The notes beneath the pieces are model-generated. The model was not told the origin of the DNA and searched no databases. It saw only the letters and a program-made list of their open reading frames with translations. The translations under genes and the position numbers were made by a program. DNA of 64,000 nucleotides from an uncultured virus (IMG/VR IMGVR_UViG_3300031565_000019) (Duplodnaviria; Heunggongvirae; Uroviricota; Caudoviricetes): the IMG/VR virus record IMGVR_UViG_3300031565_000019. One strand, written 5' to 3'. The stretch's first letter is position 1, and each line of letters begins with the position of its first letter. Below are positions 2,053 through 63,073 of the stretch, one piece after another.

Positions 2053-3548
2053 TTTTCAATAAATATAAAAAGATCGCCGAGCAGCAGAAGTTCATGCTTG
2101 CCGAAATGGAGATTAAGGTGACAGAGCAGAATCAGCTCTACCGGGCTTTGTATCAATTTCTTTCAACAGGCATGGCCCTGGGCAAAGATTCGCAGATGAA
2201 GGATTATGTCAGGGAAGGTTATGAGGGCAATCCCGATCTTTTCAGCATAGTCACCAAGCTGGCCGGCATGTTTGCTCAGGTAATGGATAAAGTGAAACTC
2301 ATGCAGCGGAAGGGAGATAAATATGTCGAAGTTGAAAATGAAGAGATTGATAAAATATTTGAGAGGACTAATTACTATCAGAATTTCATGGAGTTCTGTC
2401 GTCATTGGGCAATAAGCAATTACATCACCGGCAATGGCATAGTTTACGCTCCACGTTTTACGGCAGGAATTAACCAGGGTAAGCTGACAAATGATGGTAT
2501 GATAATGATGCCGACCCAAAACGTGACAATTTATTCAAAGGGCTGGCGCCAACCGATAGGAACTTATAGTCTGGATATTGATGAGACTTACCGGATCGAT
2601 GCAGAGGATGTATGGCATGAACGGTTTGCTCCGACACTCAGCTATGAAGAGGGCCGGAACTTTATGGGCATGTCACCGGTGAAGGTAGCCCATGATATCA
2701 TCAACAGCCAGAATAAAGGTTATGAGATAACGGCGAAGATGTACAGCTATGGTCATCCACCGGGGATCCTCAGCAAAGAAGCTGAACACGGTGACGAAAC
2801 AACAGCAGAACAGGAATCGAAATTCAGGGAACGGTACCGGACCAAATATCAGGGAGTGGACAATATGGCCGTACCCATCTTCACCCTGGGCAAATTATCA
2901 TATACGAAGATAGGCTATGATAATATGAAGGAACTGGATATTATCTCCATGAGTGAACATGGCCGGAGAGTATTCTGCAATATCCTGCAAACACCATCGC
3001 AATTATTTAACGACACCGCAGCAAGTACTTATAATAATCAACTTCTGGCAGAAAAGGCCATGTATACAAATCGGCTTATACCCGATGTGTCGCAATTCTG
3101 TTCAGGATTTAACAATATTGTCAGAGCCTATGGAGACTTTATTGTAAAACCTGATTATTCAGAAATTGAATGTCTGCAGGAAGATAAAGTCAAAAAGGTC
3201 GAATGGGTAAGCAAGCTATACCAGGACGGGATTATCAGCGGCGATATGTATCTGGAAATGATCGGAGAAGAACCAACAGGACTGCCGGAGATGCAAGTCC
3301 GATATACTAACGCTAATAGGATCCCTATGGGTTTTGAAGAGAATGCAGACATAGAACGGAGCGATAAATTTTATCTGGAGCACGGGATAAGTGATTATTA
3401 TGACAAGTCGAAATTCAGGAGAGATAATGTTGAAAAACATATAGTTAAATGTAGTAATTGTGATTACGAGTTTGATTATTTATCTATTTCAGAAGCAGGG
3501 ATGGGATATGTTTTATGTCCTAAATGTGGTAAAACGGTTACGCAATAA
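2043..3548 (+). CDS. HK97-family portal protein with C-terminal Zn-ribbon extension
   Basis: Position after TerL; 'GNGIVY', 'GMSPV', 'PPGIL' and 'STYNN' portal motifs; terminal CxxC-x19-CPKC. Confidence 0.88.
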   Translation: MGLIFNKYKKIAEQQKFMLAEMEIKVTEQNQLYRALYQFLSTGMALGKDSQMKDYVREGYEGNPDLFSIVTKLAGMFAQVMDKVKLMQRKGDKYVEVENEEIDKIFERTNYYQNFMEFCRHWAISNYITGNGIVYAPRFTAGINQGKLTNDGMIMMPTQNVTIYSKGWRQPIGTYSLDIDETYRIDAEDVWHERFAPTLSYEEGRNFMGMSPVKVAHDIINSQNKGYEITAKMYSYGHPPGILSKEAEHGDETTAEQESKFRERYRTKYQGVDNMAVPIFTLGKLSYTKIGYDNMKELDIISMSEHGRRVFCNILQTPSQLFNDTAASTYNNQLLAEKAMYTNRLIPDVSQFCSGFNNIVRAYGDFIVKPDYSEIECLQEDKVKKVEWVSKLYQDGIISGDMYLEMIGEEPTGLPEMQVRYTNANRIPMGFEENADIERSDKFYLEHGISDYYDKSKFRRDNVEKHIVKCSNCDYEFDYLSISEAGMGYVLCPKCGKTVTQ

Positions 3549-19160: not shown

Positions 19161-20977
19161 GAAAGATAATTATTATAATATTATTTTTATTTATAAGTGT
19201 TTCTGTAAATGCTACTATTTACTGGGTAACTCCGCGAGGATCAAATGCAAATACTGGTGCTGATTCTTCTTCAACAGGTGCATGGCTTACCTGGCATTAT
19301 GCTTTTAATCAAACAGCCGTAGCTGGTGATACGGTTTATTTTAGAGGTGGCATTTATACTGCATATAGTACAACGATTGGTGCACAGTTAAATAATGCAG
19401 CAATGAGTGGAACTTATAATGAACCTACCTGTTTTTTTGCTTATCCGGCTGATTGGGCAACTGGCAATTATCCTATTTTTGATGGCAGTCTTTTAGCGAA
19501 GACACAAAACCAATGGGGTATTGAAATTACAAAAGTCAGCAATATTCATTTTAAAGGTTTATGGGTCAGGAATGTAAGGCAAGTAGGTACGGCCATTGAC
19601 TCTAAAGCATCAGGATGGTTTCTTTGGAGCAGTTACAGTATGACTGATTATGCACCTAATAATATCAGATTTGAGAATTGTGTTGCTCATCACATAGGAG
19701 GGGCTGGTTTTGAAAAAATGATTGCTGATACTTTATATTTCATAAATTGTGATGCTTTTAATTGTTGCGATTCACTGTCTGTTGCTGATCCTGGTGGTCA
19801 TGGAGAGGGGTTTGGTATATTTGGCAGATCAGGCACACATAATGATGCATATATGTCTTATACATATTTATTTGGTTGTAGGGCATGGATGTGTTCAGAT
19901 CAAGGTTTTTCTTATTGTTCTAAAGGAGTGATAGTTACAGATCATTGCTGGTCTATACATAATGGTGATATGCCATTCCCGACAAATACTGCAAGAAAAG
20001 GTTCTGCATGGAAATTATGGTATTATGATGCTACACAAGTTAAAAATTCAAGTATTACACAAATAGTAATGCATAATAGTATAGGTGCTTATAATGCATT
20101 TCATGGTTGGAACTGGACAGATGCATCAGAACCTACAATGCCGGAAATAAGATGCCATATATATAATAATCTCTTCTATGGTAATACTTATTCTGTACCT
20201 TATTATGGTTCGCCGTGGGGTTATAATATGATGGATGATGTACAAACTGATACAGTTGGTAAGTGGGATCATAAATATTATAACAATTTATCTTATGATG
20301 TAAATGATTACAGATATGATATATTGGGAGGTGTCAATGGATCAAATAATCTTTGGAACGTGTCCGGATCGCCTGTTACTGATCTTTATTTTCTGAGTCT
20401 TGATACAGCAGGGATGCTTGGTGTAGGAACAAGAAAAGCGGATGGTTCATTACCCGATACTGATTTTGGCAAATCTTCATCAACAAGTCCTTTGATAGAT
20501 GCAGGAATAGATGTATTTGGTATAGACTTTAATGGTGAAGCACCTGATATTGGGTGGGTGGAATACGAACCACAAGACCCGCCAGTTGATCCAATAGTTA
20601 TAGTAGTTGTAGATATTTCCGCAGGAGCAGGACAGGCGACAATAGGATGTAACGTGACGGATGACGGCGGGGGAACGGTATCAGACAGGGGTGTGTGCTG
20701 GGCATTAACTGCCAATCCCGTAATTACTGACAGTCATAACCATAATGGAACAGGCACGGGAACATTTAACTCATATATAACAGGACTATTGCCAATTACC
20801 ACTTATCATGTAAGGGCCTTTGCGACTAATGAGGCGGGCACGGGATATAGTGCAGATTCAGAGTTTATGACAACTTCCGATGCGGGACTTGGTGGTGATG
20901 TCGTATTTAGTCCTGATGGGAAGCCTTTATTTATTTACGATAATGTCAGTGGAACTTGGAAAATATTAGTAAAATGA
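19157..20977 (+). CDS. signal-peptide beta-helix (PL9 pectate-lyase-like) protein with FN3-like domain
   Basis: 'AGDTVYFRGG', 'CRAW..SDQGF', 'RKADGSLP' and 'APDIG' PL9-like motifs; 'TYHVRAFATN'. Confidence 0.75.
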   Translation: MRKIIIIILFLFISVSVNATIYWVTPRGSNANTGADSSSTGAWLTWHYAFNQTAVAGDTVYFRGGIYTAYSTTIGAQLNNAAMSGTYNEPTCFFAYPADWATGNYPIFDGSLLAKTQNQWGIEITKVSNIHFKGLWVRNVRQVGTAIDSKASGWFLWSSYSMTDYAPNNIRFENCVAHHIGGAGFEKMIADTLYFINCDAFNCCDSLSVADPGGHGEGFGIFGRSGTHNDAYMSYTYLFGCRAWMCSDQGFSYCSKGVIVTDHCWSIHNGDMPFPTNTARKGSAWKLWYYDATQVKNSSITQIVMHNSIGAYNAFHGWNWTDASEPTMPEIRCHIYNNLFYGNTYSVPYYGSPWGYNMMDDVQTDTVGKWDHKYYNNLSYDVNDYRYDILGGVNGSNNLWNVSGSPVTDLYFLSLDTAGMLGVGTRKADGSLPDTDFGKSSSTSPLIDAGIDVFGIDFNGEAPDIGWVEYEPQDPPVDPIVIVVVDISAGAGQATIGCNVTDDGGGTVSDRGVCWALTANPVITDSHNHNGTGTGTFNSYITGLLPITTYHVRAFATNEAGTGYSADSEFMTTSDAGLGGDVVFSPDGKPLFIYDNVSGTWKILVK

Positions 20978-21411
20978 AAACGATGAAAATTTCTCTGATT
21001 CTTTTAATAGCAACCTTTGCCGTTGCCTGCGGGCAGAAGGCTGATGATACCTTTGATAAAGTCATAACTTTCAACTATGGCTTCAGGTTCAGTCCGACAG
21101 GGCAAATTTATACCTCACTGCCCTCTATTGGTGCAACATATTGGAATGATGTTCTTAGCAAGCCGTTGAACTTCCCGCCCATTGCACACACGCACGACTA
21201 TACTACCGACTTGACGAAATTGCCGGGTACGATAGAATTAGCGGAAGCCATTGAACAGTTGGGATATTTACCTATCCCGGGCAAAACAACAGCAGAGATC
21301 AACGCTATTGTGGTTTCTGCGGGCAAAAGTGGGATAGTGAAAGACGCAACGCTTGATTGTTATAAAGTTTGGTCAAATGGTGCGTGGAGGATAATTCCAA
21401 CGACAAATTAA
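20956..21411 (+). CDS. putative lipoprotein/fibre-associated protein (likely start 20974 or 20983)
   Basis: Hydrophobic leader ending 'AVAC' (lipobox-like); 'W..V..KP..FPP.AHTH' fibre motif. Confidence 0.55.
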   Translation: MENISKMKTMKISLILLIATFAVACGQKADDTFDKVITFNYGFRFSPTGQIYTSLPSIGATYWNDVLSKPLNFPPIAHTHDYTTDLTKLPGTIELAEAIEQLGYLPIPGKTTAEINAIVVSAGKSGIVKDATLDCYKVWSNGAWRIIPTTN

Positions 21412-22441: not shown

Positions 22442-23224
22442 ATGTGCTGGAAGAAGATTCTCGATTGCTTTAAACCTGATCCCGTTGTCCCGATAACAGG
22501 CAATAAAGTTGCTTTGCTGTTTGCCATTGATGATTATTATGGAACGCAAAATGATTTACCTGATTGTGTTCTGGACCAAACTCATGTTGCAGACTTTATT
22601 GCTAAAAACTATCCTGAATTTATAGTTAAGAAATTCAAAAACTCAGAGGTTACAAGAAACAATTTCAAGAGTGCTATTGTAGCACAGTTGGCAACTATGC
22701 AATTAGGAGACATCTTGCTTATCTATTATAGTGGACACGGGACGAATGGTCCTGATGCAAGCGAGCCTGATGGTTATAGGGAAGGACTTTATTTATATGA
22801 TGGTACTTTCTGGGATGATGAATTTACAACTATCCTACAAAACATTTCAGCAGAGGAAAAGGTCATTATTGTTCTTGATAGTTGTTTTGCTCAAGGGTCA
22901 ACTACTCCGAAGAATAGTAAGTTAAGAAAGCCGAGGTTTGTTCATACTCAGGAGATAAGAAAGAGTGCGAAAAGACTCAAGACTATCCTTAAATCAGATA
23001 CAATGGATTATATTGTATTTGCAGCCTGTCAGGAGAATCAGACATCTTCAAGTACTGGAAGAGGGGGCGTATTTACATTGCATTGGGTTGAGGCATGGAG
23101 AAGGCACTATACATATCGCCAATGGAATTATATGACAACACAATTACTGAGAGATGATAATGAAACACAGATACCAAATATTGAAGGTGATGAAAATTTG
23201 ATGGAACAAATAGTATTAACCTAA
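22442..23224 (+). CDS. caspase-family (peptidase C14, metacaspase-like) protein
   Basis: 'ALL..I..Y...L..CV.D', catalytic 'YYSGHG' and 'DSC', 'AAC..NQTS' and 'Q.P'. Confidence 0.9.
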   Translation: MCWKKILDCFKPDPVVPITGNKVALLFAIDDYYGTQNDLPDCVLDQTHVADFIAKNYPEFIVKKFKNSEVTRNNFKSAIVAQLATMQLGDILLIYYSGHGTNGPDASEPDGYREGLYLYDGTFWDDEFTTILQNISAEEKVIIVLDSCFAQGSTTPKNSKLRKPRFVHTQEIRKSAKRLKTILKSDTMDYIVFAACQENQTSSSTGRGGVFTLHWVEAWRRHYTYRQWNYMTTQLLRDDNETQIPNIEGDENLMEQIVLT

Positions 23225-23928: not shown

Positions 23929-23959
23929 AGGGGCAGGCGTGGTTCCCTGCTCCTTTTTT
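23929..23959 (+). terminator. Rho-independent terminator closing module 1
   Basis: AGGGGCAGG/CCTGCTCCT stem followed by a T run. Confidence 0.75.
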
Positions 23960-23960
23960 A

Positions 23961-23991
23961 TTTGTTTATATCAAAATAGTTATTATCTTTG
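23961..23991 (+). promoter_or_regulatory. Bacteroidota housekeeping-sigma promoter
   Basis: TTTG (23961-23964), 19 nt, TATCTTTG (23984-23991); matches the -33/-7 consensus. Confidence 0.8.
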
Positions 23992-24090
23992 TCATTGAAT
24001 ATAATATTCTGTGTCGGCAGAAGGAATAACGATTTAAAACCTACCGGGGAGTAAGAGCCGACACTCTGAAACTCGGTAGGTATTTTTATT

Positions 24091-24378
24091 ATGAATAAGA
24101 TTATTTATATGGATATTGAATTTAAAATACCTATTTATCCGAGCAAAAATCATGCTTATCATGGATATTATTGTGCCGACAAAATAAATACTGCTTTTAG
24201 ATTGAATAAAATTAAAAAACAACCATGCGAGATTTGTGGTAGTCTTGAACATATCGAAAAACATCACGAAGATTATAATAATCCATTAGATATAAGGTGG
24301 TTGTGTCGGGTACATCATTTGGATTTACACAAACTATTTAGACATATCAACAAACAACCTTGTTTAGAATTATTCTAA
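24091..24378 (+). CDS. HNH-like Zn-binding endonuclease
   Basis: 'PCEICG...HHEDY..PL.IRWLC..HH'. Confidence 0.7.
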   Translation: MNKIIYMDIEFKIPIYPSKNHAYHGYYCADKINTAFRLNKIKKQPCEICGSLEHIEKHHEDYNNPLDIRWLCRVHHLDLHKLFRHINKQPCLELF

Positions 24379-32979: not shown

Positions 32980-33449
32980 TCTAAATATCGCATTAAATGG
33001 GCATTTGCGAAAAGCAAAAACATCAAAAAAATAAAGTTCTTTGATATCCAATATACTTTTAAAAAAACTTCAGGAACCAAAAAGTTATTTCTTCTTGGCA
33101 ATACTTTTTGAAAAAGTTCAAAGTTAAAAAAGTTATTCTTTGGCTCACGGACTTTTCAAAAAAGTTCAAAAGTAAAAGATTGTATCTCTAAAACTCAGAA
33201 GGTTTTGAAAAGTCCAAAAGTAAAAGATTGTATCTTCAAAACTTGAAAGGTTTTAAAAAGTTTGAAATTTAAAAAGTATAACTTCAAAAGTTGCAATCTC
33301 AAAAAAAGTTTGAAAATCAAAAAGTATATCTCTGAGAAAAAAACTTTTTAAAAAAGTTTCATTTTAAAAAAGTATAGATTACTTCGCTGAACTTTACAAA
33401 AATTGATAAATTTGAACGTCGCAAATGCCCATTAAATGTCAACTCTTAA
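32980..33449. repeat. array A: 8 degenerate 48-bp units bracketed by dyad sites
   Basis: The AAAAG-W5-CTTT anchor recurs at 33036, 33084, 33132, 33180, 33228, 33276, 33324 and 33372. End sites: CATTAAATGGGCATTTGCGA (32991-33010) and TCGCAAATGCCCATTAAATG (33419-33438). Confidence 0.9.
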
Positions 33450-33696: not shown

Positions 33697-34392
33697 GTGG
33701 CTAAAAGATTTATTGATACCGGCTTTTTAGATCAGAAATGGATAAGAAAATTAACTCCAGAGAAAAAGATATTTCTTATTTATTTGATGCTTAAATGTGA
33801 TAATGGAGGTATCATTGAATTAGATATTGAAGATATTGAATTTTGGGTTGGTAAAAAAATTGGTAATCTGGACTTTTTACCTGAAAATTATTTGATACAA
33901 TTGAATAATTCAAGTAAATATTTTATGCCGAAATTTATTGAATGGCAATATAAAGATTTAACTTCTCAAAAATATATAGTTGTTCAGGCAAGACAAATAC
34001 TTGAAAAACATGGACTTATAAATGATGATTTTACATTAAATTTAGATAAAAGTTACATAAAAGTTACAAAAGAGTTTCCTGAAAGTCAGGAAACAGGTAT
34101 AAGTAATGGTAATGGTATAGGTAATGGTAAAGAAAAGAGTGAAGAATTGTTAAAGAAGAGAGAAGATGCTTTTAAATTGGATGTTTCTATATTCTCCGGC
34201 AATTATTCACAAGAGATGCTTCAAAAGTTTGTAAATTACTGGACTGAGAAAAACAAAAGTAAAACAAAGATGCGTTTTGAGTTGGAAAAAACATTTGAAA
34301 TAAATAAACGTTTGGCGACATGGGCAGGCAGGGATAGGGATATTCTTAAAACAAGCAAATTTGAGCCTAAAATAAGCACTAAATATTTGTAA
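33697..34392 (+). CDS. putative replication initiator / replisome organiser
   Basis: N-terminal 'AKRFIDT...W.RKL....K....YL...CD..G' and C-terminal 'F.NYWTE.NKS.TKMRFELEKT....RL.TW' seen in Bacteroidota phage replication proteins. Confidence 0.7.
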   Translation: MAKRFIDTGFLDQKWIRKLTPEKKIFLIYLMLKCDNGGIIELDIEDIEFWVGKKIGNLDFLPENYLIQLNNSSKYFMPKFIEWQYKDLTSQKYIVVQARQILEKHGLINDDFTLNLDKSYIKVTKEFPESQETGISNGNGIGNGKEKSEELLKKREDAFKLDVSIFSGNYSQEMLQKFVNYWTEKNKSKTKMRFELEKTFEINKRLATWAGRDRDILKTSKFEPKISTKYL

Positions 34393-34393
34393 C

Positions 34394-34924
34394 ATGGAGA
34401 AAGACGAAAAATATCAGATGTATGCAAATGACCTTGTAATAAATGTACCTATTGACATTTTGAAGCAACTCATAAACTTATTCATGTTTGAGTCAGCTAT
34501 TAATATGGGTTGTGAAGTTAACGACAAAACACTCGAAAGGACTATTTACTACATCCAGAAGGATTATGGTTATATTCCTGTTAGTTATGTTGCTTCTGCA
34601 TTCATTCAGGGATCACTTGGTAAATTGCCTTATGCTGTCGGGATGACAAAACTTGTACCTAAAACTATACATTACTGGTTGGGGGAAGTGAGTATGGAGT
34701 ATAACAGGGCAATAGCTAAGAAGAAGCAGAAGGATCGGGAGTCGGATGTGGCTATTGCTTATGATCTGCATAAATATCCACTGGGACAAGCAATAATACA
34801 AAAAATTAGGTGGCATAAAGAGGGGAAATTGGATGGTGATGCTTGGGATCATGTGGAATTAAAGAAGCTTGCTGAGGCTATTGCGAGGAAGGAAGAGATA
34901 ACGTTTGATAAATTTTACAAATAG
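34394..34924 (+). CDS. hypothetical protein next to the initiator
   Basis: Operon position only. Confidence 0.6.
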   Translation: MEKDEKYQMYANDLVINVPIDILKQLINLFMFESAINMGCEVNDKTLERTIYYIQKDYGYIPVSYVASAFIQGSLGKLPYAVGMTKLVPKTIHYWLGEVSMEYNRAIAKKKQKDRESDVAIAYDLHKYPLGQAIIQKIRWHKEGKLDGDAWDHVELKKLAEAIARKEEITFDKFYK

Positions 34925-37215: not shown

Positions 37216-37263
37216 CCAATGAGTAAATATTTGCATTAAGGGGATATAAGCAGAAAAATAAGT

Positions 37264-37294
37264 TTTGATTTGTCAGAAAATATGTTTATCTTTG
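37264..37294 (+). promoter_or_regulatory. Bacteroidota promoter driving TIGR-like array 1
   Basis: TTTG (37264-37267), 19 nt, TATCTTTG (37287-37294); the predicted TSS falls in the first edge repeat. Confidence 0.8.
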
Positions 37295-37296
37295 CA

Positions 37297-37377
37297 AATG
37301 AATCATTTGATTTAAGATAACCAAAATTGACAAGTGAATCAGGATGTTCAAGATAACCAATATGCCTAAGTGAACCG
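37297..37377 (+). ncRNA. TIGR-like dual-repeat guide array 1 (2 x 36 nt)
   Basis: AGTGAATCA / 9 nt / AGATAACCA / 9 nt. Spacer pairs TTTGATTTA+AAATTGACA and GGATGTTCA+ATATGCCTA. Confidence 0.75.
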
Positions 37378-37398
37378 GAGAATATACTCCGGTTTTTT
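37373..37398 (+). terminator. Rho-independent terminator of array 1
   Basis: AACCGGAG-AATATA-CTCCGGTT followed by T run. Confidence 0.8.
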
Positions 37399-37437
37399 AA
37401 TTTGATAACATTTTTCATTTAAAATAGAAATAATTAT

Positions 37438-39000: not shown

Positions 39001-39614
39001 TCGCAAACGCCCACTAAATGGGGGGATGTAAAAACAGGAAAATACAAAAATTGTAAAGTTATTTGAGGTTGGATGGACTTTTTAAAAAGAGTTAAAAAAT
39101 TAAAAGTTATTCTTTGGGTGAAATACTTTTTGTAAAACTTCCGAAAGTGAAAAGTTATTCTTTGACTTCCACGCTTTTTAAAAAAGTATGAAAACAAAAA
39201 AGTATATCTCTTACAACTGAACTTTTTAAAAAAAGTTGATTACAGAAAAGTTAATCTTTCAGTGTTGGACTTTTTAAAAAAGATTCAGATTTTAAAAGTA
39301 TAACTATAACAACAAAACTTTTCAGAAAAGTTTAAAACTGAAAAAGTTATTTCATTCCGGGTGAACTTTTAAAAAAAGTTTTGAAAAAAAAGATTCAATC
39401 TTTCGCTGACGAACTTTTTAAAAAAGTTTATTTTTGAAAAGTATATCTTTGAAAGTTGAAAGGTTTTGAAAAGTTCAGAAACAAAAAAGTTAATCTTCAA
39501 AAGTTAGAAGGTATAAAAAAGTTTCACTTTAAAAAAGTATAGCTTGCTCCGCTGAACTTTACAAAAATTGCTAAATTTGAACGTCGCAAACGCCCATATA
39601 ATGCCAATGTTTAA
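39001..39614. repeat. array B: 11 degenerate 48-bp units bracketed by dyad sites
   Basis: Anchor at 39058, 39106, 39154, 39202, 39250, 39298, 39346, 39394, 39441, 39489 and 39537 (one 47-bp step). TCGCAAACGCCCA at 39001-39013 and 39584-39596. Confidence 0.9.
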
Positions 39615-41694: not shown

Positions 41695-41906
41695 TAACAG
41701 CAAAATATTTTAAAAAATTGGTAGTTAATGATGTGGAATACACAGATATAATGATAATACCATCTTGGTTATTAAAATCAATTTTAAGATATGATGATGA
41801 ATTATTAAAACAGAATTATAATTCATTAACTGATTATGGTAAAGGAATAGTGAATACTTTAAAGGAACAACATACTATATTATCAATTAATTCAGATACG
41901 CAATGA
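41691..41906 (+). CDS. hypothetical protein
   Basis: ATGA overlaps on both sides. Confidence 0.45.
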   Translation: MITAKYFKKLVVNDVEYTDIMIIPSWLLKSILRYDDELLKQNYNSLTDYGKGIVNTLKEQHTILSINSDTQ

Positions 41907-42889
41907 TAACTTTAATTTCCACTCCTGAGTATGTTGAACAGTTATTACCGAAGATATTATGCAGATGGGTCGCAACGGAAAGTCCCAATAACTTTCGTTT
42001 ATTACGACAGGATTTCCCTGTATTAACAGCAGCGGAAAACGCAGGTGCTTTAAGATTAACTGTTGCTGCGGGTACATTCACAGGACAGGTCGGGAATATT
42101 ATAACTGTCTATAACAGGACGCTCGATGCAATGTATTCCGGCATGGTACAGGCAGGATCAACAACCACCATTATAGATACTGACATAGGATTTATTGACG
42201 GTTTCAATCCATCGGATTACCTGCTTAATCCCGATAGGGACTTTGCTTATTTTAATGACAACACGTTACATGCCGGATATTATTTTGAAGGTGAAATGAC
42301 CATAAACGGAATTCCTCATCCTTTAACTATCATAGCTTCGCCTGATTCGTTTGGTTATGCTGACCTTGATGTATCAGGGATTTTAAGGATAATAACCACA
42401 CTCGGGAAGGTCGGAGATTACACAGAACTAATAATGGCCGAGACGAATAAGTCCGGTAACTTCTCTTTGGCATACCGTGAATGTTGGTATGGATCGAGTG
42501 AAACGTGGATTGCTGCCGAGGGTTCTCCGCCTGTCCTTTGGTATTATGGGGAGGCAGTCAGAAGCGAGGAGCAGGGATCGAATCTGCATGAATACGAGGC
42601 TGATGATGTAAATGATGCTCCATTCTTTAATTCATTTGACAGGCCAGTTTATTTTGCGGGACTCCCTTTTGATCTTACATTTATCCTTCCTGAACGAGCA
42701 TTAATATCACCTGTGGGAGAATTAAGGGTAACAATAAGAAAATACAACTCTGCAAATACTTTGTTGAGTGAAGATATTATTGACTTTCCTGCTGATTATC
42801 TCGAAGGGCATCTCTGTTCACTCACCATTGATCCGGCAGGGATAGAGGAATATGCATCATATTTCACCGCAGAAATAACAGCTCCATAA
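41903..42889 (+). CDS. putative tail structural protein
   Basis: Acidic beta-rich protein heading the module 2 tail operon. Confidence 0.55.
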   Translation: MITLISTPEYVEQLLPKILCRWVATESPNNFRLLRQDFPVLTAAENAGALRLTVAAGTFTGQVGNIITVYNRTLDAMYSGMVQAGSTTTIIDTDIGFIDGFNPSDYLLNPDRDFAYFNDNTLHAGYYFEGEMTINGIPHPLTIIASPDSFGYADLDVSGILRIITTLGKVGDYTELIMAETNKSGNFSLAYRECWYGSSETWIAAEGSPPVLWYYGEAVRSEEQGSNLHEYEADDVNDAPFFNSFDRPVYFAGLPFDLTFILPERALISPVGELRVTIRKYNSANTLLSEDIIDFPADYLEGHLCSLTIDPAGIEEYASYFTAEITAP

Positions 42890-44907
42890 TGGGATTCGGA
42901 TTAAATCTATATGAACTTGTAAGGATTCCAATAAGCCGGAGATGCAATGGCTATTATCTTCGCTGGTATTATAATGGCTGGCATTACTGGTTATGGCATC
43001 CCGGCAGAATAGTTTTTATTACCGAAGGGGAGAAATACAGGACATTAGGAACGCAAACGCTAACAATAGGTTCAGGCCAGATAACAGAAGAACAGGTCAG
43101 ATCAATACGCACGATAAAGAACACTAAGGAAATCAATATCTATACTGATTCAGGCTGGGGTGTAGTGCGCCTTATTCCCGGCAGCGTCATAACATACAAT
43201 AATCAGATACATGGCTACGAAGTAGAGATCACTATAATCATAGGCAGCAAACAGATCTCAAGAGACGGGTTTAGTCCTGCAATATCTATCCCGGTTGTTG
43301 ATCCTTCTTATGAGTATTGTGAAACAATGTGTATTGGAGATCAGATTTGGATGTGTAAGAATTATGATTCCTATTATCCGGGCAGCAGGGTTTACAATAA
43401 TGATGAAGATAACAGGGCTGAATACGGAGGGCTTTATAAGCATAATCAGGTCATGGCTTCTGGATTCGTTCCGGCAGGTTGGAAGGTGCCGACAATAGCA
43501 GAATGGACTACATTGATAACTGAATGCGGTGGGGTTTTAGTTGCAGGGGGTGAATTAAAGGAAATAGGCACAACTCACTGGAATGCTCCTAATACAGGTG
43601 CGGTTGATACTTATAATTTTTCAGCATTAGGTGGAGGCAGATATGGATTCCTGCTCGGAGTGGGAACGCAATATCATTATTTTAAAGTTTATGGGTTTTT
43701 CTGGGCACAGGATGGTTTTATAAGAATGGATTATGATAGTGCAGAGATAACAGTTGGGACAGGAATTATTTTGCCAGGCGAGTATTATTCTGTCAGATTA
43801 TTAAGAATCGAACCTTGTATTATAACTCCTATTAAAAATGGATTGCTTTATAACTGGTATATGGCAAAAGGGCTTAATGATTGGTTTTTGCCTTCCAGAG
43901 ATGAACTAAATGCGATGTATGTTAATTTACATTCAGTAGGATTTGGAGGATTTTCTAATGGTTCTTATCATTCTTCAAGTGAATATAATGATGTTTATAT
44001 GCATTATCAAATATTTCTCAATGGAAATCAATCATATTCAGGTAAAGCAAGTGTTTTTCATGTAAGGGCTTGTAGATCATTTGAAGGAGAATTAGGTGAA
44101 TATTCATTACGTGATGTTGGACAGACAGGTGGTTTGATATTTTATATTAATGGCACGACATATTACGAGGCAGCTCCATCAGATCAACACGATTCCCATG
44201 TATGGAGTAATATTGTTAATGTTTTAGTTGGAACAAATACAGCGATAGGCACTGGAAAGGCAAATACTACAGCAATAATTAATCAGGAAGGTCATATAGA
44301 GAGCGCAGCTAAACTTTGTGATGATTTATCTTCTGATGAAAATAATATAGCTCCTGCGGGTTGGCATGTACCTACTGATGTTGATTGGAATGAATTAGCA
44401 ACATTTGTTGGAGGATCAGGAATAGCTGGCGGAATATTAAAAGAAATGGGATTAACATATTGGCTAACTCCCAATACAGGGGCATCAAACGACTATGGAT
44501 TTTCTGCACGGGGAGCAGGCGAACGTTCTGGTAATACTGGAGTTTTTCAAAGTATTTTATCAATGAGTAGGATATGGTCAATAGATGAATATTCGCCGAC
44601 AAATGGCAAATTTATATTAATGGAATATAATACTGACAATACTACACTCACAAGTACAAATAAAAAAGCTGGTCAATCAATTCGTTTAATAAAAGATGAT
44701 AGTAATGACCCCGGGACAATGACTGGCAATGATGGGAAAATATATGCCACAATTAAGATAGGTAATCAGGTATGGTTATCCCGTAATCTTGCAGAGACAA
44801 AAGATAGAAACGGAAATACAATTCCAGAGGTGACAGATAATGTCGCTTGGCTTGCTTTAGAAACAGGGGCGCTTTGTGCTTATGATAATGACTGGGATAA
44901 TGTATGA
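42889..44907 (+). CDS. tail-associated protein with FISUMP (Fib_succ_major) and DUF1566/Lcl-like C-type-lectin-fold domains
   Basis: 'IGDQIWM.KN', 'YGGLY', 'PAGW.VPT..EW..L' and 'SVRL'; 'DWFLPSRDEL..MY', 'SSSEY' and 'VRACRSF'. Confidence 0.8.
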   Translation: MGFGLNLYELVRIPISRRCNGYYLRWYYNGWHYWLWHPGRIVFITEGEKYRTLGTQTLTIGSGQITEEQVRSIRTIKNTKEINIYTDSGWGVVRLIPGSVITYNNQIHGYEVEITIIIGSKQISRDGFSPAISIPVVDPSYEYCETMCIGDQIWMCKNYDSYYPGSRVYNNDEDNRAEYGGLYKHNQVMASGFVPAGWKVPTIAEWTTLITECGGVLVAGGELKEIGTTHWNAPNTGAVDTYNFSALGGGRYGFLLGVGTQYHYFKVYGFFWAQDGFIRMDYDSAEITVGTGIILPGEYYSVRLLRIEPCIITPIKNGLLYNWYMAKGLNDWFLPSRDELNAMYVNLHSVGFGGFSNGSYHSSSEYNDVYMHYQIFLNGNQSYSGKASVFHVRACRSFEGELGEYSLRDVGQTGGLIFYINGTTYYEAAPSDQHDSHVWSNIVNVLVGTNTAIGTGKANTTAIINQEGHIESAAKLCDDLSSDENNIAPAGWHVPTDVDWNELATFVGGSGIAGGILKEMGLTYWLTPNTGASNDYGFSARGAGERSGNTGVFQSILSMSRIWSIDEYSPTNGKFILMEYNTDNTTLTSTNKKAGQSIRLIKDDSNDPGTMTGNDGKIYATIKIGNQVWLSRNLAETKDRNGNTIPEVTDNVAWLALETGALCAYDNDWDNV

Positions 44908-54396: not shown

Positions 54397-54403
54397 AGAT
54401 TTA

Positions 54404-54433
54404 TTTGTTTATATCAAATATTGTGTATCTTTG
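54404..54433 (+). promoter_or_regulatory. Bacteroidota promoter driving TIGR-like array 2
   Basis: TTTG (54404-54407), 18 nt, TATCTTTG (54426-54433); its upstream part TTATTTGTTTATATCAAA also occurs at the 23961 promoter. Confidence 0.75.
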
Positions 54434-54547
54434 TAATTGAGAATGACAAAATGCAAAAAATTATTATTTACAATATTGCCCCGCGGCATTAATCCCATTG
54501 AAGTCTGGTCATTCTCCTTTGATGGTTTTTTGTTGCGGGGCACGTTC

Positions 54548-54772
54548 TTTGAATCATTACATTTAAGATAACCATTGGCACAAAGTGAATCACAAATGGA
54601 AAGACAACCAATGACTAAAAGTGAATCAGGATGTTTAAGATAACCAGGAAGCGGAAGTGAATCATAATAAACAAGATACCCAATATGCTTAAGTGAATCA
54701 GAACGTAAAAGACAACCATTAAAATAAAGTGAATCATATATGTTAAGATAACCATCGTTGATAAGTGAAGCT
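54548..54772 (+). ncRNA. TIGR-like dual-repeat guide array 2 (6 x 36 nt)
   Basis: GAATCA recurs at 54551, 54587, 54623, 54659, 54695 and 54731; the second repeat AGAYAMCCA lies 18 nt out of phase; 9-nt intervening segments all differ. Confidence 0.85.
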
Positions 54773-54796
54773 TCTGAGAAATCAGGAGCTTTTTTT
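54769..54796 (+). terminator. Rho-independent terminator of array 2
   Basis: AGCTTCTGA-GAAA-TCAGGAGCT followed by T6. Confidence 0.85.
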
Positions 54797-54968
54797 ATGC
54801 TCAAAAGTTACTATCCATTTATGAATAGTAAAATAATCTCATTGTGATTTACTTTTGTCTCATAATTAAATCAAAAGACTATGAATCCGATGGGTGTTTG
54901 TTCAGCTTATACTTATATTGATCAGGTTCTATTTATTATCAATGACAATAGTTATCCGGATATAGCTA

Positions 54969-61927: not shown

Positions 61928-63073
61928 ATGAAAAAATTATTATTATTAATATCTCTTGCTATTAGCATAGGAATAAATGGGCAGAAAATAACAAATTTAA
62001 CTGAAGCCACCACGGCTCCGACAGGTTCCTTACTTATGGTGAGATCAGGGACAACAGGAAATCTTATCAAAAGGATTACCGTGGATAATTTATTATTAAA
62101 TTATATAATCAGTGCTGACACGGCTGCAATGTTAGATAAATATCTGCGTAAACAGCCTATTGATTCTCTTGGGACTGTTGGGACGGCGGTTGGATTTTAT
62201 AATAGCGCAGGAGATACAGTTCCTCCTTATATACCTTATGCAAACAGGGCAGATTTGGTAGCTGTATTAAGAGATCTTGGTGTAACTATGTTTACTGACA
62301 AATATCAACTTGTATATAACGCACTTGATATTAAGCCGGATAGCGACACCGCACATTATCAGAATGATATGGTATATAGTCTTGACAGTGCAGGATATTG
62401 GGACAGGGGAAAATTACTTTATGTTGCTGCACAAAGAAGCACGGCAGGAGCTAAGATTAACTGGATAACGCCGGGGACTTATAATCTTACTGATCCCGGC
62501 AGTACTGTTCCATCATTTATTAAATATCAGGGGTTTGATATGGATGGTTCGTCTGATTATTTTTCAACAGATTATGTTCCTGTTACTGATTCTTTACTCG
62601 CGAGTAGTCCTGCTAATTATATTGGAGTAAATTGTACAACATTGTCTGCATGGACATTAACAGGATTAAGCGCAGGCGGCAGAACTGTAATTGGTGCATT
62701 TTCCGGTACTGGTATTGGAACACACCTCGCTACATTAAACTCAATAGCTACAAAGATTAATTCAGTATCAAATTCAGTTCTTGGTGCCCAGACAGATGGG
62801 AATGGATATACGATGGCAACAAGACGAGGAAAGACAGAACTTGAAGGATATTTTAATGGTGTTATCAATGGGACAGATAATGAAGTAAGTTATTCTCTGC
62901 AAGATGATGCTTTATTTGTTGGAGCTCTTAATGATGATGGAGGGAGTGTTTTATATTTTTATGACGGTATTATTTCGATAATACTGGTTATGGATGATGT
63001 TTCGGATGCCGATGCACTTGGAATTTTTAATATTTTCAATCATTTTATGAATCACATGGGACTGGGATTATGA
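61928..63073 (+). CDS. signal-peptide structural protein; paralogue of 18168-19160
   Basis: Sec leader, 'KITNL' fibre-anchor-like motif and the shared block. Confidence 0.7.
   Translation: MKKLLLLISLAISIGINGQKITNLTEATTAPTGSLLMVRSGTTGNLIKRITVDNLLLNYIISADTAAMLDKYLRKQPIDSLGTVGTAVGFYNSAGDTVPPYIPYANRADLVAVLRDLGVTMFTDKYQLVYNALDIKPDSDTAHYQNDMVYSLDSAGYWDRGKLLYVAAQRSTAGAKINWITPGTYNLTDPGSTVPSFIKYQGFDMDGSSDYFSTDYVPVTDSLLASSPANYIGVNCTTLSAWTLTGLSAGGRTVIGAFSGTGIGTHLATLNSIATKINSVSNSVLGAQTDGNGYTMATRRGKTELEGYFNGVINGTDNEVSYSLQDDALFVGALNDDGGSVLYFYDGIISIILVMDDVSDADALGIFNIFNHFMNHMGLGL

What the first reader, a model, noticed from the sequence alone, without database searches (positions are those of the whole stretch)
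37264..37398. Minimal two-unit TIGR-like cassette at the junction between early genes and the second terminase
Seen: a complete promoter, two 36-nt units and a terminator in about 135 bp, using the same repeats as the array at 54548. The predicted start site, about 6-7 nt after TATCTTTG, falls inside the first edge repeat, so the primary transcript would start close to the expected 5' end of a guide. The last edge repeat runs directly into the terminator stem, as in array 2. Inference: a portable mini guide cassette; two dispersed arrays served by one trans-encoded effector.
Basis: partly seen in the sequence, partly recalled or inferred. Interest (0 to 1): 0.8.

Follow-up and report, generated by a model that had tools for sequence, protein, structure and literature searches.

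The report
Stand-alone TIGR guide mini-array in phage
A soil phage carries a tiny self-contained gene for two RNA guides of the recently discovered TIGR-Tas DNA-targeting system, yet has no gene for the protein that uses such guides, so the guides probably depend on a protein supplied by another virus.

Summary
Window 37264-37398 holds a Bacteroidota-type promoter, two 36-nt TIGR units and an intrinsic terminator. The true register is a 10-nt edge repeat AAGTGAATCA, an 8-nt spacer A, a 10-nt loop repeat AAGAYAACCA and an 8-nt spacer B. The six-unit array at 54547-54797 uses the same repeats. This architecture matches the characterised array of Salicola phage CGphi29 (SpTasH), and other phages place the same repeats directly beside TasH homologues.

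Window 20862-64000 is identical to a complete 44,007-bp phage record (G001). No TasH or Nop-like gene was detected in it with five sequence and profile methods, and a positive control rang 4 of 4. Both arrays are therefore tas-less.

A natural variant (L265) carries the cassette at the same place. It has 0 changes in 72 nt of promoter plus repeats, against 7.7% in the flank (P about 0.003), and 2 changes in 30 spacer nt. Similar stand-alone cassettes occur in other metagenomic contigs.

My best reading is a functional guide-only mini-array that relies on TasH supplied in trans by another element. Expression, targets and the TasH donor are not shown. This is a new variant of a known kind.

The parts
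37264..37294 (+). Bacteroidota-type promoter of the cassette: -33 TTTG at 37264-37267 and -7 TATCTTTG at 37287-37294. Bases 37264-37275 (TTTGATTTGTCA) equal the first 12 nt of the predicted target of guide 1.
   Evidence: identical in variant L265
37296..37305 (+). First edge repeat, AAATGAATCA (9 of 10 to the consensus). The predicted transcription start near 37300-37301 lies inside it.
   Evidence: start position inferred from promoter geometry
37306..37331 (+). Unit 1 core: spacer A1 TTTGATTT, loop repeat AAGATAACCA, spacer B1 AAATTGAC
   Evidence: unchanged in L265
37332..37341 (+). Internal edge repeat AAGTGAATCA
37342..37367 (+). Unit 2 core: spacer A2 GGATGTTC, loop AAGATAACCA, spacer B2 ATATGCCT. 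A2 matches spacer A of array-2 unit 3, and B2 matches spacer B of array-2 unit 4, with 1 mismatch each. This is a hybrid of the two units.
   Evidence: L265 differs at 37349 and 37360
37368..37398 (+). 3'-truncated edge repeat AAGTGAA running into an intrinsic terminator (stem 37372-37395, then a T run)
54404..54546 (+). Promoter (54404-54433) and about 106-nt structured leader of array 2. The leader is conserved with those of tasH-linked arrays. The mini-cassette has no such leader.
54547..54797 (+). Array 2: six 36-nt units with the same repeats, a 3'-truncated edge at 54763-54769, and a terminator at 54770-54796

Best explanation
The 135-bp element is an autonomous two-guide TIGR mini-array of the SpTasH (HNH-type Tas) family.

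Proposed mechanism.
- Its own Bacteroidota-type promoter starts transcription inside the first edge repeat, close to where a mature tigRNA would begin.
- Two 36-nt units follow.
- The last, truncated edge repeat feeds into an intrinsic terminator.

The phage that carries it (G001, 44 kb, complete) also has a six-unit array with the same repeats but encodes no Tas protein. SpTasH-type proteins both process and use such RNAs, so the transcript can only mature and act if a TasH dimer is supplied in trans. The likeliest donor is a co-infecting or resident phage of the same host. The cassette would then work as a guide-only module that loads a foreign nuclease with this phage's own 8+8-nt guides. 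The purpose would be redirection or sequestration in conflicts between phages.

The cassette probably arose from array 2 or a common ancestor. Unit 2 looks like the product of recombination between two neighbouring loop repeats.

Shown here: the anatomy, the family assignment of the repeats, the absence of tas, and the conservation of promoter and repeats in one natural variant.

Inferred: transcription, processing, the trans supply of TasH, and the biological role.
For: 1. Architecture. The 10-8-10-8 register, the 5' and 3' truncated edge repeats and the terminator match the description of dual-repeat arrays in Faure 2025 (PMC12045711; passages read). They also match the array next to SpTasH in Salicola phage CGphi29, read directly. 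That array has edge AAGCGAGCCA, loop AAGACAACCA, 8-nt spacers, and a last edge running into the terminator.

2. Same repeats beside TasH.
- In IMG/VR the exact unit occurs in 8 contigs. Of the 7 that are not G001, 6 have a TasH-HMM hit next to the array.
- The L015 protein matches the solved SpTasH structure at E=6.5e-103.
- In metagenomes, 29 of 47 contigs with the unit have TasH in the locus.

3. No tas in the phage.
- Pfam scan of 90 ORFs: none.
- Nop PF01798 and PF02371 on G001: none.
- tblastn: no significant hit; best E=0.010, 28% identity over 85 aa in ORF 61928-63073, which has no TasH match in the solved-structure search.
- Three-sequence HMM on six frames: best E=0.4. Six-sequence HMM: best E=1.3.
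- hhalign against 192 open frames: best probability 1.2%.
- Genome search: nothing in G001, while 4 of 4 TasH-bearing records ring.

4. Selection. Variant L265 has 21 differences in 273 nt of flank, 0 in 72 nt of promoter plus repeats (P=0.003) and 2 in 30 nt of spacers.

5. A tas-less leader-array-terminator module like array 2 recurs in L241. Promoter, leader and terminator are conserved with compensatory changes in the stems, and no spacer is shared with array 2.

6. Engineered arrays of one to three units are processed and loaded by TasR and TasH (Faure 2025, passage read). SpTasH processes pre-tigRNA by itself (PMC13421893, passages read).

7. The phage, with array 2 unchanged, is present in 4 of 4 further soil metagenome runs.
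Against: - No RNA data exist. No RNA run holds the sequence, so transcription and processing are untested.
- No TasH donor was identified. The adjacent phage fragment and its relatives lack TasH and arrays. No prokaryote genome in the species collection carries an array with this unit: 3 stretches matched, and all are single chance matches.
- No convincing target was found.
- Unit 2 is a hybrid of two array-2 units. It carries both differences seen in L265, so it may be drifting.
- 0 of 24 terminase relatives of G001 carry a cassette at this place.
- The conservation test rests on one partial variant contig.
Confidence: 0.55

Rival explanations
1. Decaying relic. An ancestor of G001 carried a full TIGR-TasH locus, tasH was lost, and the two arrays are leftovers. 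The mini-cassette would be a duplicated fragment, with no present function.
For: - There is no tas gene in the genome.
- Unit 2 is a recombinant of array-2 units 3 and 4.
- L017 shows a TasH-like ORF that seems internally deleted, next to a single-unit cassette. This suggests that tasH decay happens.
- The closest relatives lack the cassette.
Against: - Repeats are perfect in all 8 units.
- Promoter plus repeats are unchanged in L265 while the flanks differ by 7.7%.
- The cassette has acquired its own promoter and terminator.
- The tas-less module of L241 keeps leader and terminator stems through compensatory changes, while no spacer is shared with array 2.
Confidence: 0.2
2. Tas-independent role. 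The cassette is kept for something other than guiding a Tas protein. Examples are a small regulatory RNA, or a promoter/terminator insulator between the early genes and the packaging operon.
For: - It sits exactly between the early module and the terminase operon.
- The terminator at 37372-37398 is directly followed by the terminase promoter TAACTTTG.
- Relatives have a plain terminator and promoter at this position.
Against: This does not explain why exact TasH-type edge and loop repeats in 36-nt register are retained in both units, nor why similar arrays sit upstream of terminase genes in L281 and L282.
Confidence: 0.1
3. G001 encodes a cis effector that is too divergent to recognise by sequence.
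For: Many G001 ORFs have no family assignment. No structure prediction was run on them.
Against: - The repeats are nearly the same as those used by readily detectable SpTasH homologues, so a cognate protein should be detectable.
- hhalign best probability is 1.2% over 192 frames.
- Three candidate ORFs gave nothing against solved structures.
- G001 shares no gene with the other tas-less records, including the estimated-complete G002; only the arrays match.
Confidence: 0.08
4. A minus-strand protein-coding gene (ORF 37236-37418, 60 aa), or a chance repeat.
For: An ATG-started 60-aa frame overlaps the cassette on the minus strand.
Against: - It has no family match.
- Its repetitive translation simply mirrors the 36-nt period.
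- The motif count is far above chance.
Confidence: 0.01

Closest known systems
Dual-repeat TIGR array of Salicola phage CGphi29 (SpTIGR-TasH)
   Same: - 36-nt units of a 10-nt edge, 8-nt spacer A, 10-nt loop and 8-nt spacer B
- The loop AAGACAACCA falls within AAGAYAACCA
- The edge AAGCGAGCCA matches AAGTGAATCA at 7 of 10 positions
- The array ends with a truncated edge that runs into a terminator
   Different: - SpTIGR lies directly downstream of tasH; here the genome has no tas gene.
- There are only two units.
- The promoter abuts the first edge repeat.
- A second array lies 17 kb away.
Engineered minimal TIGR arrays of one to three units (Faure et al. 2025, PMC12045711; passages read)
   Same: One to three units are enough for processing and loading by TasR and TasH.
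   Different: Those were laboratory constructs co-expressed with Tas. This one is natural, has its own promoter and terminator, and has no Tas in cis.
Virus-borne mini-CRISPR arrays and orphan CRISPR arrays on mobile elements (review PMC11656645, abstract seen in the listing; primary work recalled, not read)
   Same: Very short guide arrays on viruses without effector genes, thought to use an effector encoded elsewhere in conflicts between viruses.
   Different: A different RNA-guided system: box C/D-type dual-spacer guides and a Nop-domain nuclease. Here the expected donor of the effector is another phage rather than the host.
Phage crRNA-like regulatory RNAs and RNA anti-CRISPRs (bioRxiv 10.1101/2024.10.29.618823, abstract seen in the listing; RNA anti-CRISPRs recalled)
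   Same: Phage-encoded repeat-bearing RNAs that occupy a foreign effector. A partial match to a promoter acts as a regulatory target.
   Different: Nothing of this kind is described for TIGR. The 12 of 16 self-match seen here is only a statistical hint.

Membership tests
Dual-repeat TIGR array (Faure 2025) | Two distinct alternating 8-12-nt repeats separated by short spacers, about 36 nt per unit | tested here: met
   The 10-8-10-8 register holds in both units and in the six units of array 2.
Dual-repeat TIGR array (Faure 2025) | [quoted passage not shown] | tested here: met
   The first edge is AAATGAATCA, and the predicted start lies inside it. The last edge is AAGTGAA, fused to the hairpin at 37372-37395 and a T run.
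Dual-repeat TIGR array (Faure 2025) | Box C/D-like ends of the repeats (repeats begin UG and end CCA in TasR arrays) | tested here: inconclusive
   The loop ends CCA, and the edge contains UGA and ends UCA. The same holds for the SpTasH array (edge ends CCA or UCA). The stated rule comes from TasR arrays, and no structure was modelled here.
Dual-repeat TIGR array (Faure 2025) | Spacers vary between units and between strains while repeats stay constant | tested here: met
   All 8 units are distinct. Variant L265 has 0 of 40 repeat nt changed and 2 of 30 spacer nt changed. L241 shares no spacer with array 2.
TIGR-Tas system (array plus Nop-domain Tas gene in one locus) | A tas gene adjacent to the array, or at least in the same genome | tested here: not met
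   There is no TasH or Nop match in the window or in the rest of G001. The positive control rang 4 of 4.
SpTasH-type array subfamily | The same repeats are found flanking bona fide TasH genes | tested here: met
   6 of 7 other IMG/VR contigs and 29 of 47 metagenome contigs with the unit have a TasH-HMM hit. L015 TasH matches the solved SpTasH at E=6.5e-103.
TIGR array | Transcribed and processed into 36-nt tigRNAs bound by Tas | not testable with these tools
   No RNA run holds the sequence.

The most novel reading that the evidence does not exclude
Tas-less phages carry guide-only TIGR cassettes as weapons or decoys. The cassette RNA is matured by the TasH of a rival phage in the same cell. 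It then either turns that nuclease onto other DNA or soaks it up, acting as an RNA 'anti-TIGR'.

Guide 1 may also recognise the cassette's own -33 promoter region. The first 12 of the 16 target positions match there, in the correct A + reverse-complement-of-B geometry. Expression would then be throttled once TasH is present.

A more speculative variant treats the split match as the scar of guide-directed insertion (homing) of the cassette: 12 nt lie upstream of the cassette and ATTT lies just after the terminator.
Probability: 0.2. Interest if true: 0.85.

Novelty: new variant of a known kind. Interest (0 to 1): 0.68.

Why it matters
TIGR-Tas systems were described in 2025, and their natural targets, biological role and mode of array evolution are still open (Faure 2025 discussion, read). 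Published surveys start from tas genes, and TIGRFinder scans around tas loci. Arrays in genomes without tas would therefore be missed. Three full-text searches and term look-ups in three TIGR papers found no mention of orphan or stand-alone TIGR arrays.

A complete phage genome with two autonomous TasH-type arrays and no tasH suggests that tigRNAs can travel and be selected separately from their effector. That points to conflict between phages as the natural setting, and it gives a concrete, small test system.

The hybrid unit 2 also shows one way that new A/B spacer pairs can arise without any adaptation machinery: recombination between loop repeats.

Tried and rejected
- **Rfam.** No family matched in the window.

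- **Earlier findings and the window's own assembly.** Neither was available.

- **Candidate effectors.** ORFs 33697-34389, 34394-34921, 41903-42886 and 61928-63070 gave nothing relevant against solved structures.

- **Target geometry.** I derived the geometry (one strand reads spacer A followed by the reverse complement of spacer B, with no gap) from the wording of PMC13421893 and of the preprint 10.64898/2026.08.11.744272. It was not stated outright.

- **Target searches.**
  - No match with 1 mismatch or fewer in the window or the first related loci, in two geometries with gaps of 0-4.
This is about what chance gives. No hit locus matches the window at DNA level, and only two weak translated matches appear, neither in G001's terminase region.
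  - In four TasH-bearing phage records (235 kb) there were 2 hits at 15 of 16, against a shuffle mean of 0.16. P(2 or more)=0.03, which is only a weak hint.
  - 33 guides parsed from those records and G002 have no hit of 15 of 16 or better on the window.

- **Homing or empty-site idea.** No relative has an intact guide-1 site upstream of its terminase. The upstream regions are not homologous.

- **Expression.** No RNA holder is listed.

- **Laid contigs.** The cassette bin has depth in 4 of 4 runs. None of the 40 differences and 15 joints shown falls inside 37264-37398, but 704 differences and 35 joints were not shown.

- **Prokaryote genomes.** The 3 matching stretches are all chance single matches, one of them in a coding repeat.

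- **Looser unit pattern in IMG/VR.** This mostly recovered arrays of other TIGR families, whose Tas type my TasH HMM cannot judge.

Full report
**What is there**

A Bacteroidota-type promoter has its -33 TTTG at 37264-37267 and its -7 box TATCTTTG at 37287-37294, 19 nt apart. One base later the first edge repeat begins.

The real register is:
- edge repeat AAGTGAATCA, 10 nt
- spacer A, 8 nt
- loop repeat AAGAYAACCA, 10 nt
- spacer B, 8 nt

This gives 36 nt per unit. There are two units. Guide 1 is TTTGATTT / AAATTGAC and guide 2 is GGATGTTC / ATATGCCT. A truncated edge AAGTGAA then runs straight into a 9-bp hairpin with a T run.

The unit motif occurs 8 times in the window, 2 here and 6 in the array at 54547-54797. 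Shuffles give 0.24, and 0 of 100 reach 8. The promoter motif is modestly enriched in the window (7 against 2.97 expected; 3 of 100 shuffles reach 7). The same TATCTTTG box drives array 2. Rfam has no family for it.

**What genome it sits in**

Window 20862-64000 is 100% identical to positions 1-43139 of IMG/VR record G001. That record is 44,007 bp long, has direct terminal repeats and is estimated 100% complete.

Window 1-20861 is the structural module of a different phage, with its own terminase, portal and capsid. The two are joined inside a homologous tail-fibre gene that is 87% identical over 20499-20988. Fragments with the identical first terminase are separate IMG/VR records estimated to be 26-29% of a genome. 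The 'second terminase' is therefore simply G001's terminase.

The cassette lies in the intergenic gap between G001's early genes and its small and large terminase genes. G001's terminase is closest to those of Bacteroides and Parabacteroides phages among cultured phages (35-37% identity). That fits the promoter type. Six soil metagenome runs hold the sequence.

**Which family the repeats belong to**

The architecture matches the published description of dual-repeat TIGR arrays (Faure 2025, passages read): two alternating repeats, short spacers, a 5'-truncated first edge, and a 3'-truncated last edge followed by a terminator.

I read the array next to SpTasH in Salicola phage CGphi29 directly. 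It has the same 10-8-10-8 register, the loop AAGACAACCA and the edge AAGCGAGCCA. Its last edge runs into the terminator stem in the same way.

The exact unit of the window occurs in 8 IMG/VR contigs. Of the 7 other than G001, 6 have a roughly 315-aa ORF beside the array that hits my TasH HMM. The one from L015 matches the solved SpTasH structure at E=6.5e-103. In metagenome contigs, 29 of 47 contigs with the unit have a TasH hit in the locus. The cassette is therefore a TasH-type TIGR array by sequence.

**No effector in the phage**

None of the following found a Tas or Nop protein in the window or in the 868 bp of G001 beyond it:
- Pfam on 90 ORFs
- PF01798 and PF02371 on G001
- tblastn with three full-length TasH proteins and two other array-adjacent ORFs. 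The best hit was E=0.010, in ORF 61928-63073, which has no TasH match among solved structures.
- a 3-sequence HMM on six frames with filters off, best E=0.4
- a 6-sequence HMM, best E=1.3, and hhalign against 192 open frames, best probability 1.2%
- a whole-record protein search; the same search rang in 4 of 4 TasH-bearing records

Phage A fragments and a complete relative lack TasH and arrays. The species-level prokaryote collection has no array with this unit. Three stretches matched, all of them single chance matches. So the arrays are tas-less, and any effector must come from another element. SpTasH matures pre-tigRNA by itself (PMC13421893, passages read), so the RNA should stay unprocessed without it.

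**Evidence that the cassette is maintained**

Metagenome contig L265 (1,059 bp) is a natural variant with the cassette at the same place. The contig ends inside spacer B2.

| Region compared with the window | Differences | Length (nt) |
|---|---|---|
| Flank | 21 | 273 |
| Promoter plus repeats | 0 | 72 |
| Spacers | 2 | 30 |

The flank rate is 7.7%. At that rate the chance of no change in promoter plus repeats is P=0.003. Both spacer differences lie in unit 2.

Array 2 has a counterpart in L241: the same promoter type, a homologous structured leader, seven units and a homologous terminator. No tasH lies in the 3 kb upstream, and the gene downstream is not tasH. The leader stems and the terminator stem differ by compensatory changes, and no spacer is shared.

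Stand-alone cassettes with terminators also occur elsewhere:
- L237: two 2-unit cassettes 1.5 kb apart, with related spacers
- L279: 3 units
- L268 and L017: 1 unit each
- L281: 9 units, promoter abutting the first edge, followed by a gene resembling a small terminase
- L282: at least 12 units, upstream of a terminase 36% identical to G001's

Most of these contigs are only 1-5 kb, so absence of tas is established only for G001. It is also established, by sequence, for the estimated-complete 36-kb record G002, which has a 4-unit array.

Against this, 0 of 24 terminase relatives of G001 carry the cassette within 3 kb. Their upstream regions are not homologous. The cassette is therefore a lineage-specific insertion.

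**Origin**

Spacer A2 equals spacer A of array-2 unit 3, at 7 of 8 positions in the window and 8 of 8 in L265. Spacer B2 equals spacer B of array-2 unit 4 at 7 of 8 positions. By my arithmetic, 24 half-spacer comparisons should give about 0.009 such near-matches by chance.

Units 3 and 4 are neighbours. A crossover between their loop repeats, which deletes exactly 36 nt, would produce unit 2. The cassette therefore descends from array 2 or a common ancestor. Unit 2 is a chimeric guide whose specificity was not 'acquired' as a pair.

**Targets**

I took the geometry to be one DNA strand reading spacer A followed by the reverse complement of spacer B, 16 bp with no gap. I derived this from structural wording in two papers. 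No convincing target emerged.

Two hints remain.
- The eight guides have 2 hits at 15 of 16 in four TasH-bearing phage records, against 0.16 expected (P=0.03).
- The first 12 nt of guide 1's predicted target are exactly 37264-37275, the cassette's own -33 region. This is the only run of 12 nt or more for any guide in that geometry in the window. Only 32 of 20,000 shuffled guides do as well within 150 nt of the cassette.

Both observations are post hoc.

**Verdict**

My best reading (0.55) is a functional guide-only cassette that depends on a TasH supplied by another phage. The main rival (0.2) is a relic of a lost TIGR-TasH locus.

No transcript, processing or donor has been shown. I could not see supplementary tables of the TIGR papers or the TIGRSafari resource, which might list such arrays.

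Noticed in passing
window 20861/20862 (and 20499-20988 against G001 43521-44007): The window joins two different phages of about 40 kb each. Positions 1-20861 hold a complete structural module of another phage. From 20862 onward the sequence is 100% G001. The join lies in a homologous tail-fibre C-terminus (87% identity), which suggests a chimeric assembly or adjacent records rather than one genome.
   Followed up: partly
window 54441-54546; also L015, L188, L192, L241: The leader of array 2 is conserved with leaders of tasH-linked arrays. It appears to form two interleaved stems, a pseudoknot-like order. One stem is GAGAATGAC / GTCATTCTC and the other is GCCCCGC / GCGGGGC, followed by GTTCTT and the first edge. 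Other loci show compensatory changes: AGAGTGAC / GTCACTCT and GCCTCAT / ATGAGGC. The mini-cassette lacks this leader.
   Followed up: partly
window 33159-33328 and 39174-39475: Two arrays of about 48-bp tandem repeats, similar to each other (74-88% identity), flank the region that holds the cassette and the terminase. The second array shows length variants (skips of 108-302 bp) in the soil runs.
   Followed up: no
L017 / L208 (IMGVR_UViG_3300035158_000215): A single-unit cassette with an abutting promoter and a terminator is followed by a TasH-like ORF. The ORF jumps from the N-terminal HNH motif region to the C-terminal Nop end, which looks like an internal deletion. The contig end cuts it off.
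   Followed up: partly
L237 (JABUBN010002439.1) about 1440-1560 and 2960-3090: Two separate two-unit cassettes, each with a terminator, lie 1.5 kb apart. Their A spacers are related (ACAAAGTT against TCAAAGTT, TTTTTCTG against TCTTTTTG). There is no TasH in the 5-kb contig.
   Followed up: partly
G002 (record of L203), about 15.3 kb: A 36-kb phage record estimated to be complete has a 4-unit TasH-type array between an ssb-like gene and the next gene. It has no promoter or terminator of its own and no TasH match.
   Followed up: partly
loci L170, L175, L180, L183: 4 of the 18 exact IMG/VR matches to guide 2's predicted target fall in a conserved protein motif, ...G(T/S)DVQAYD, preceded by LG(L/V)xIG. 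It looks like a phage tail-fibre-type motif. The total number of hits is what chance gives.
   Followed up: no
window 22442-23224: G001 encodes a caspase-family peptidase (Peptidase_C14, E=3.8e-20) just after the lysis region. Its promoter is of the same TATCTTTG type.
   Followed up: no
window 23957-23998 against 54400-54440: The promoter of array 2 is duplicated (88% over 43 nt) upstream of the early ORF at 24091.
   Followed up: no
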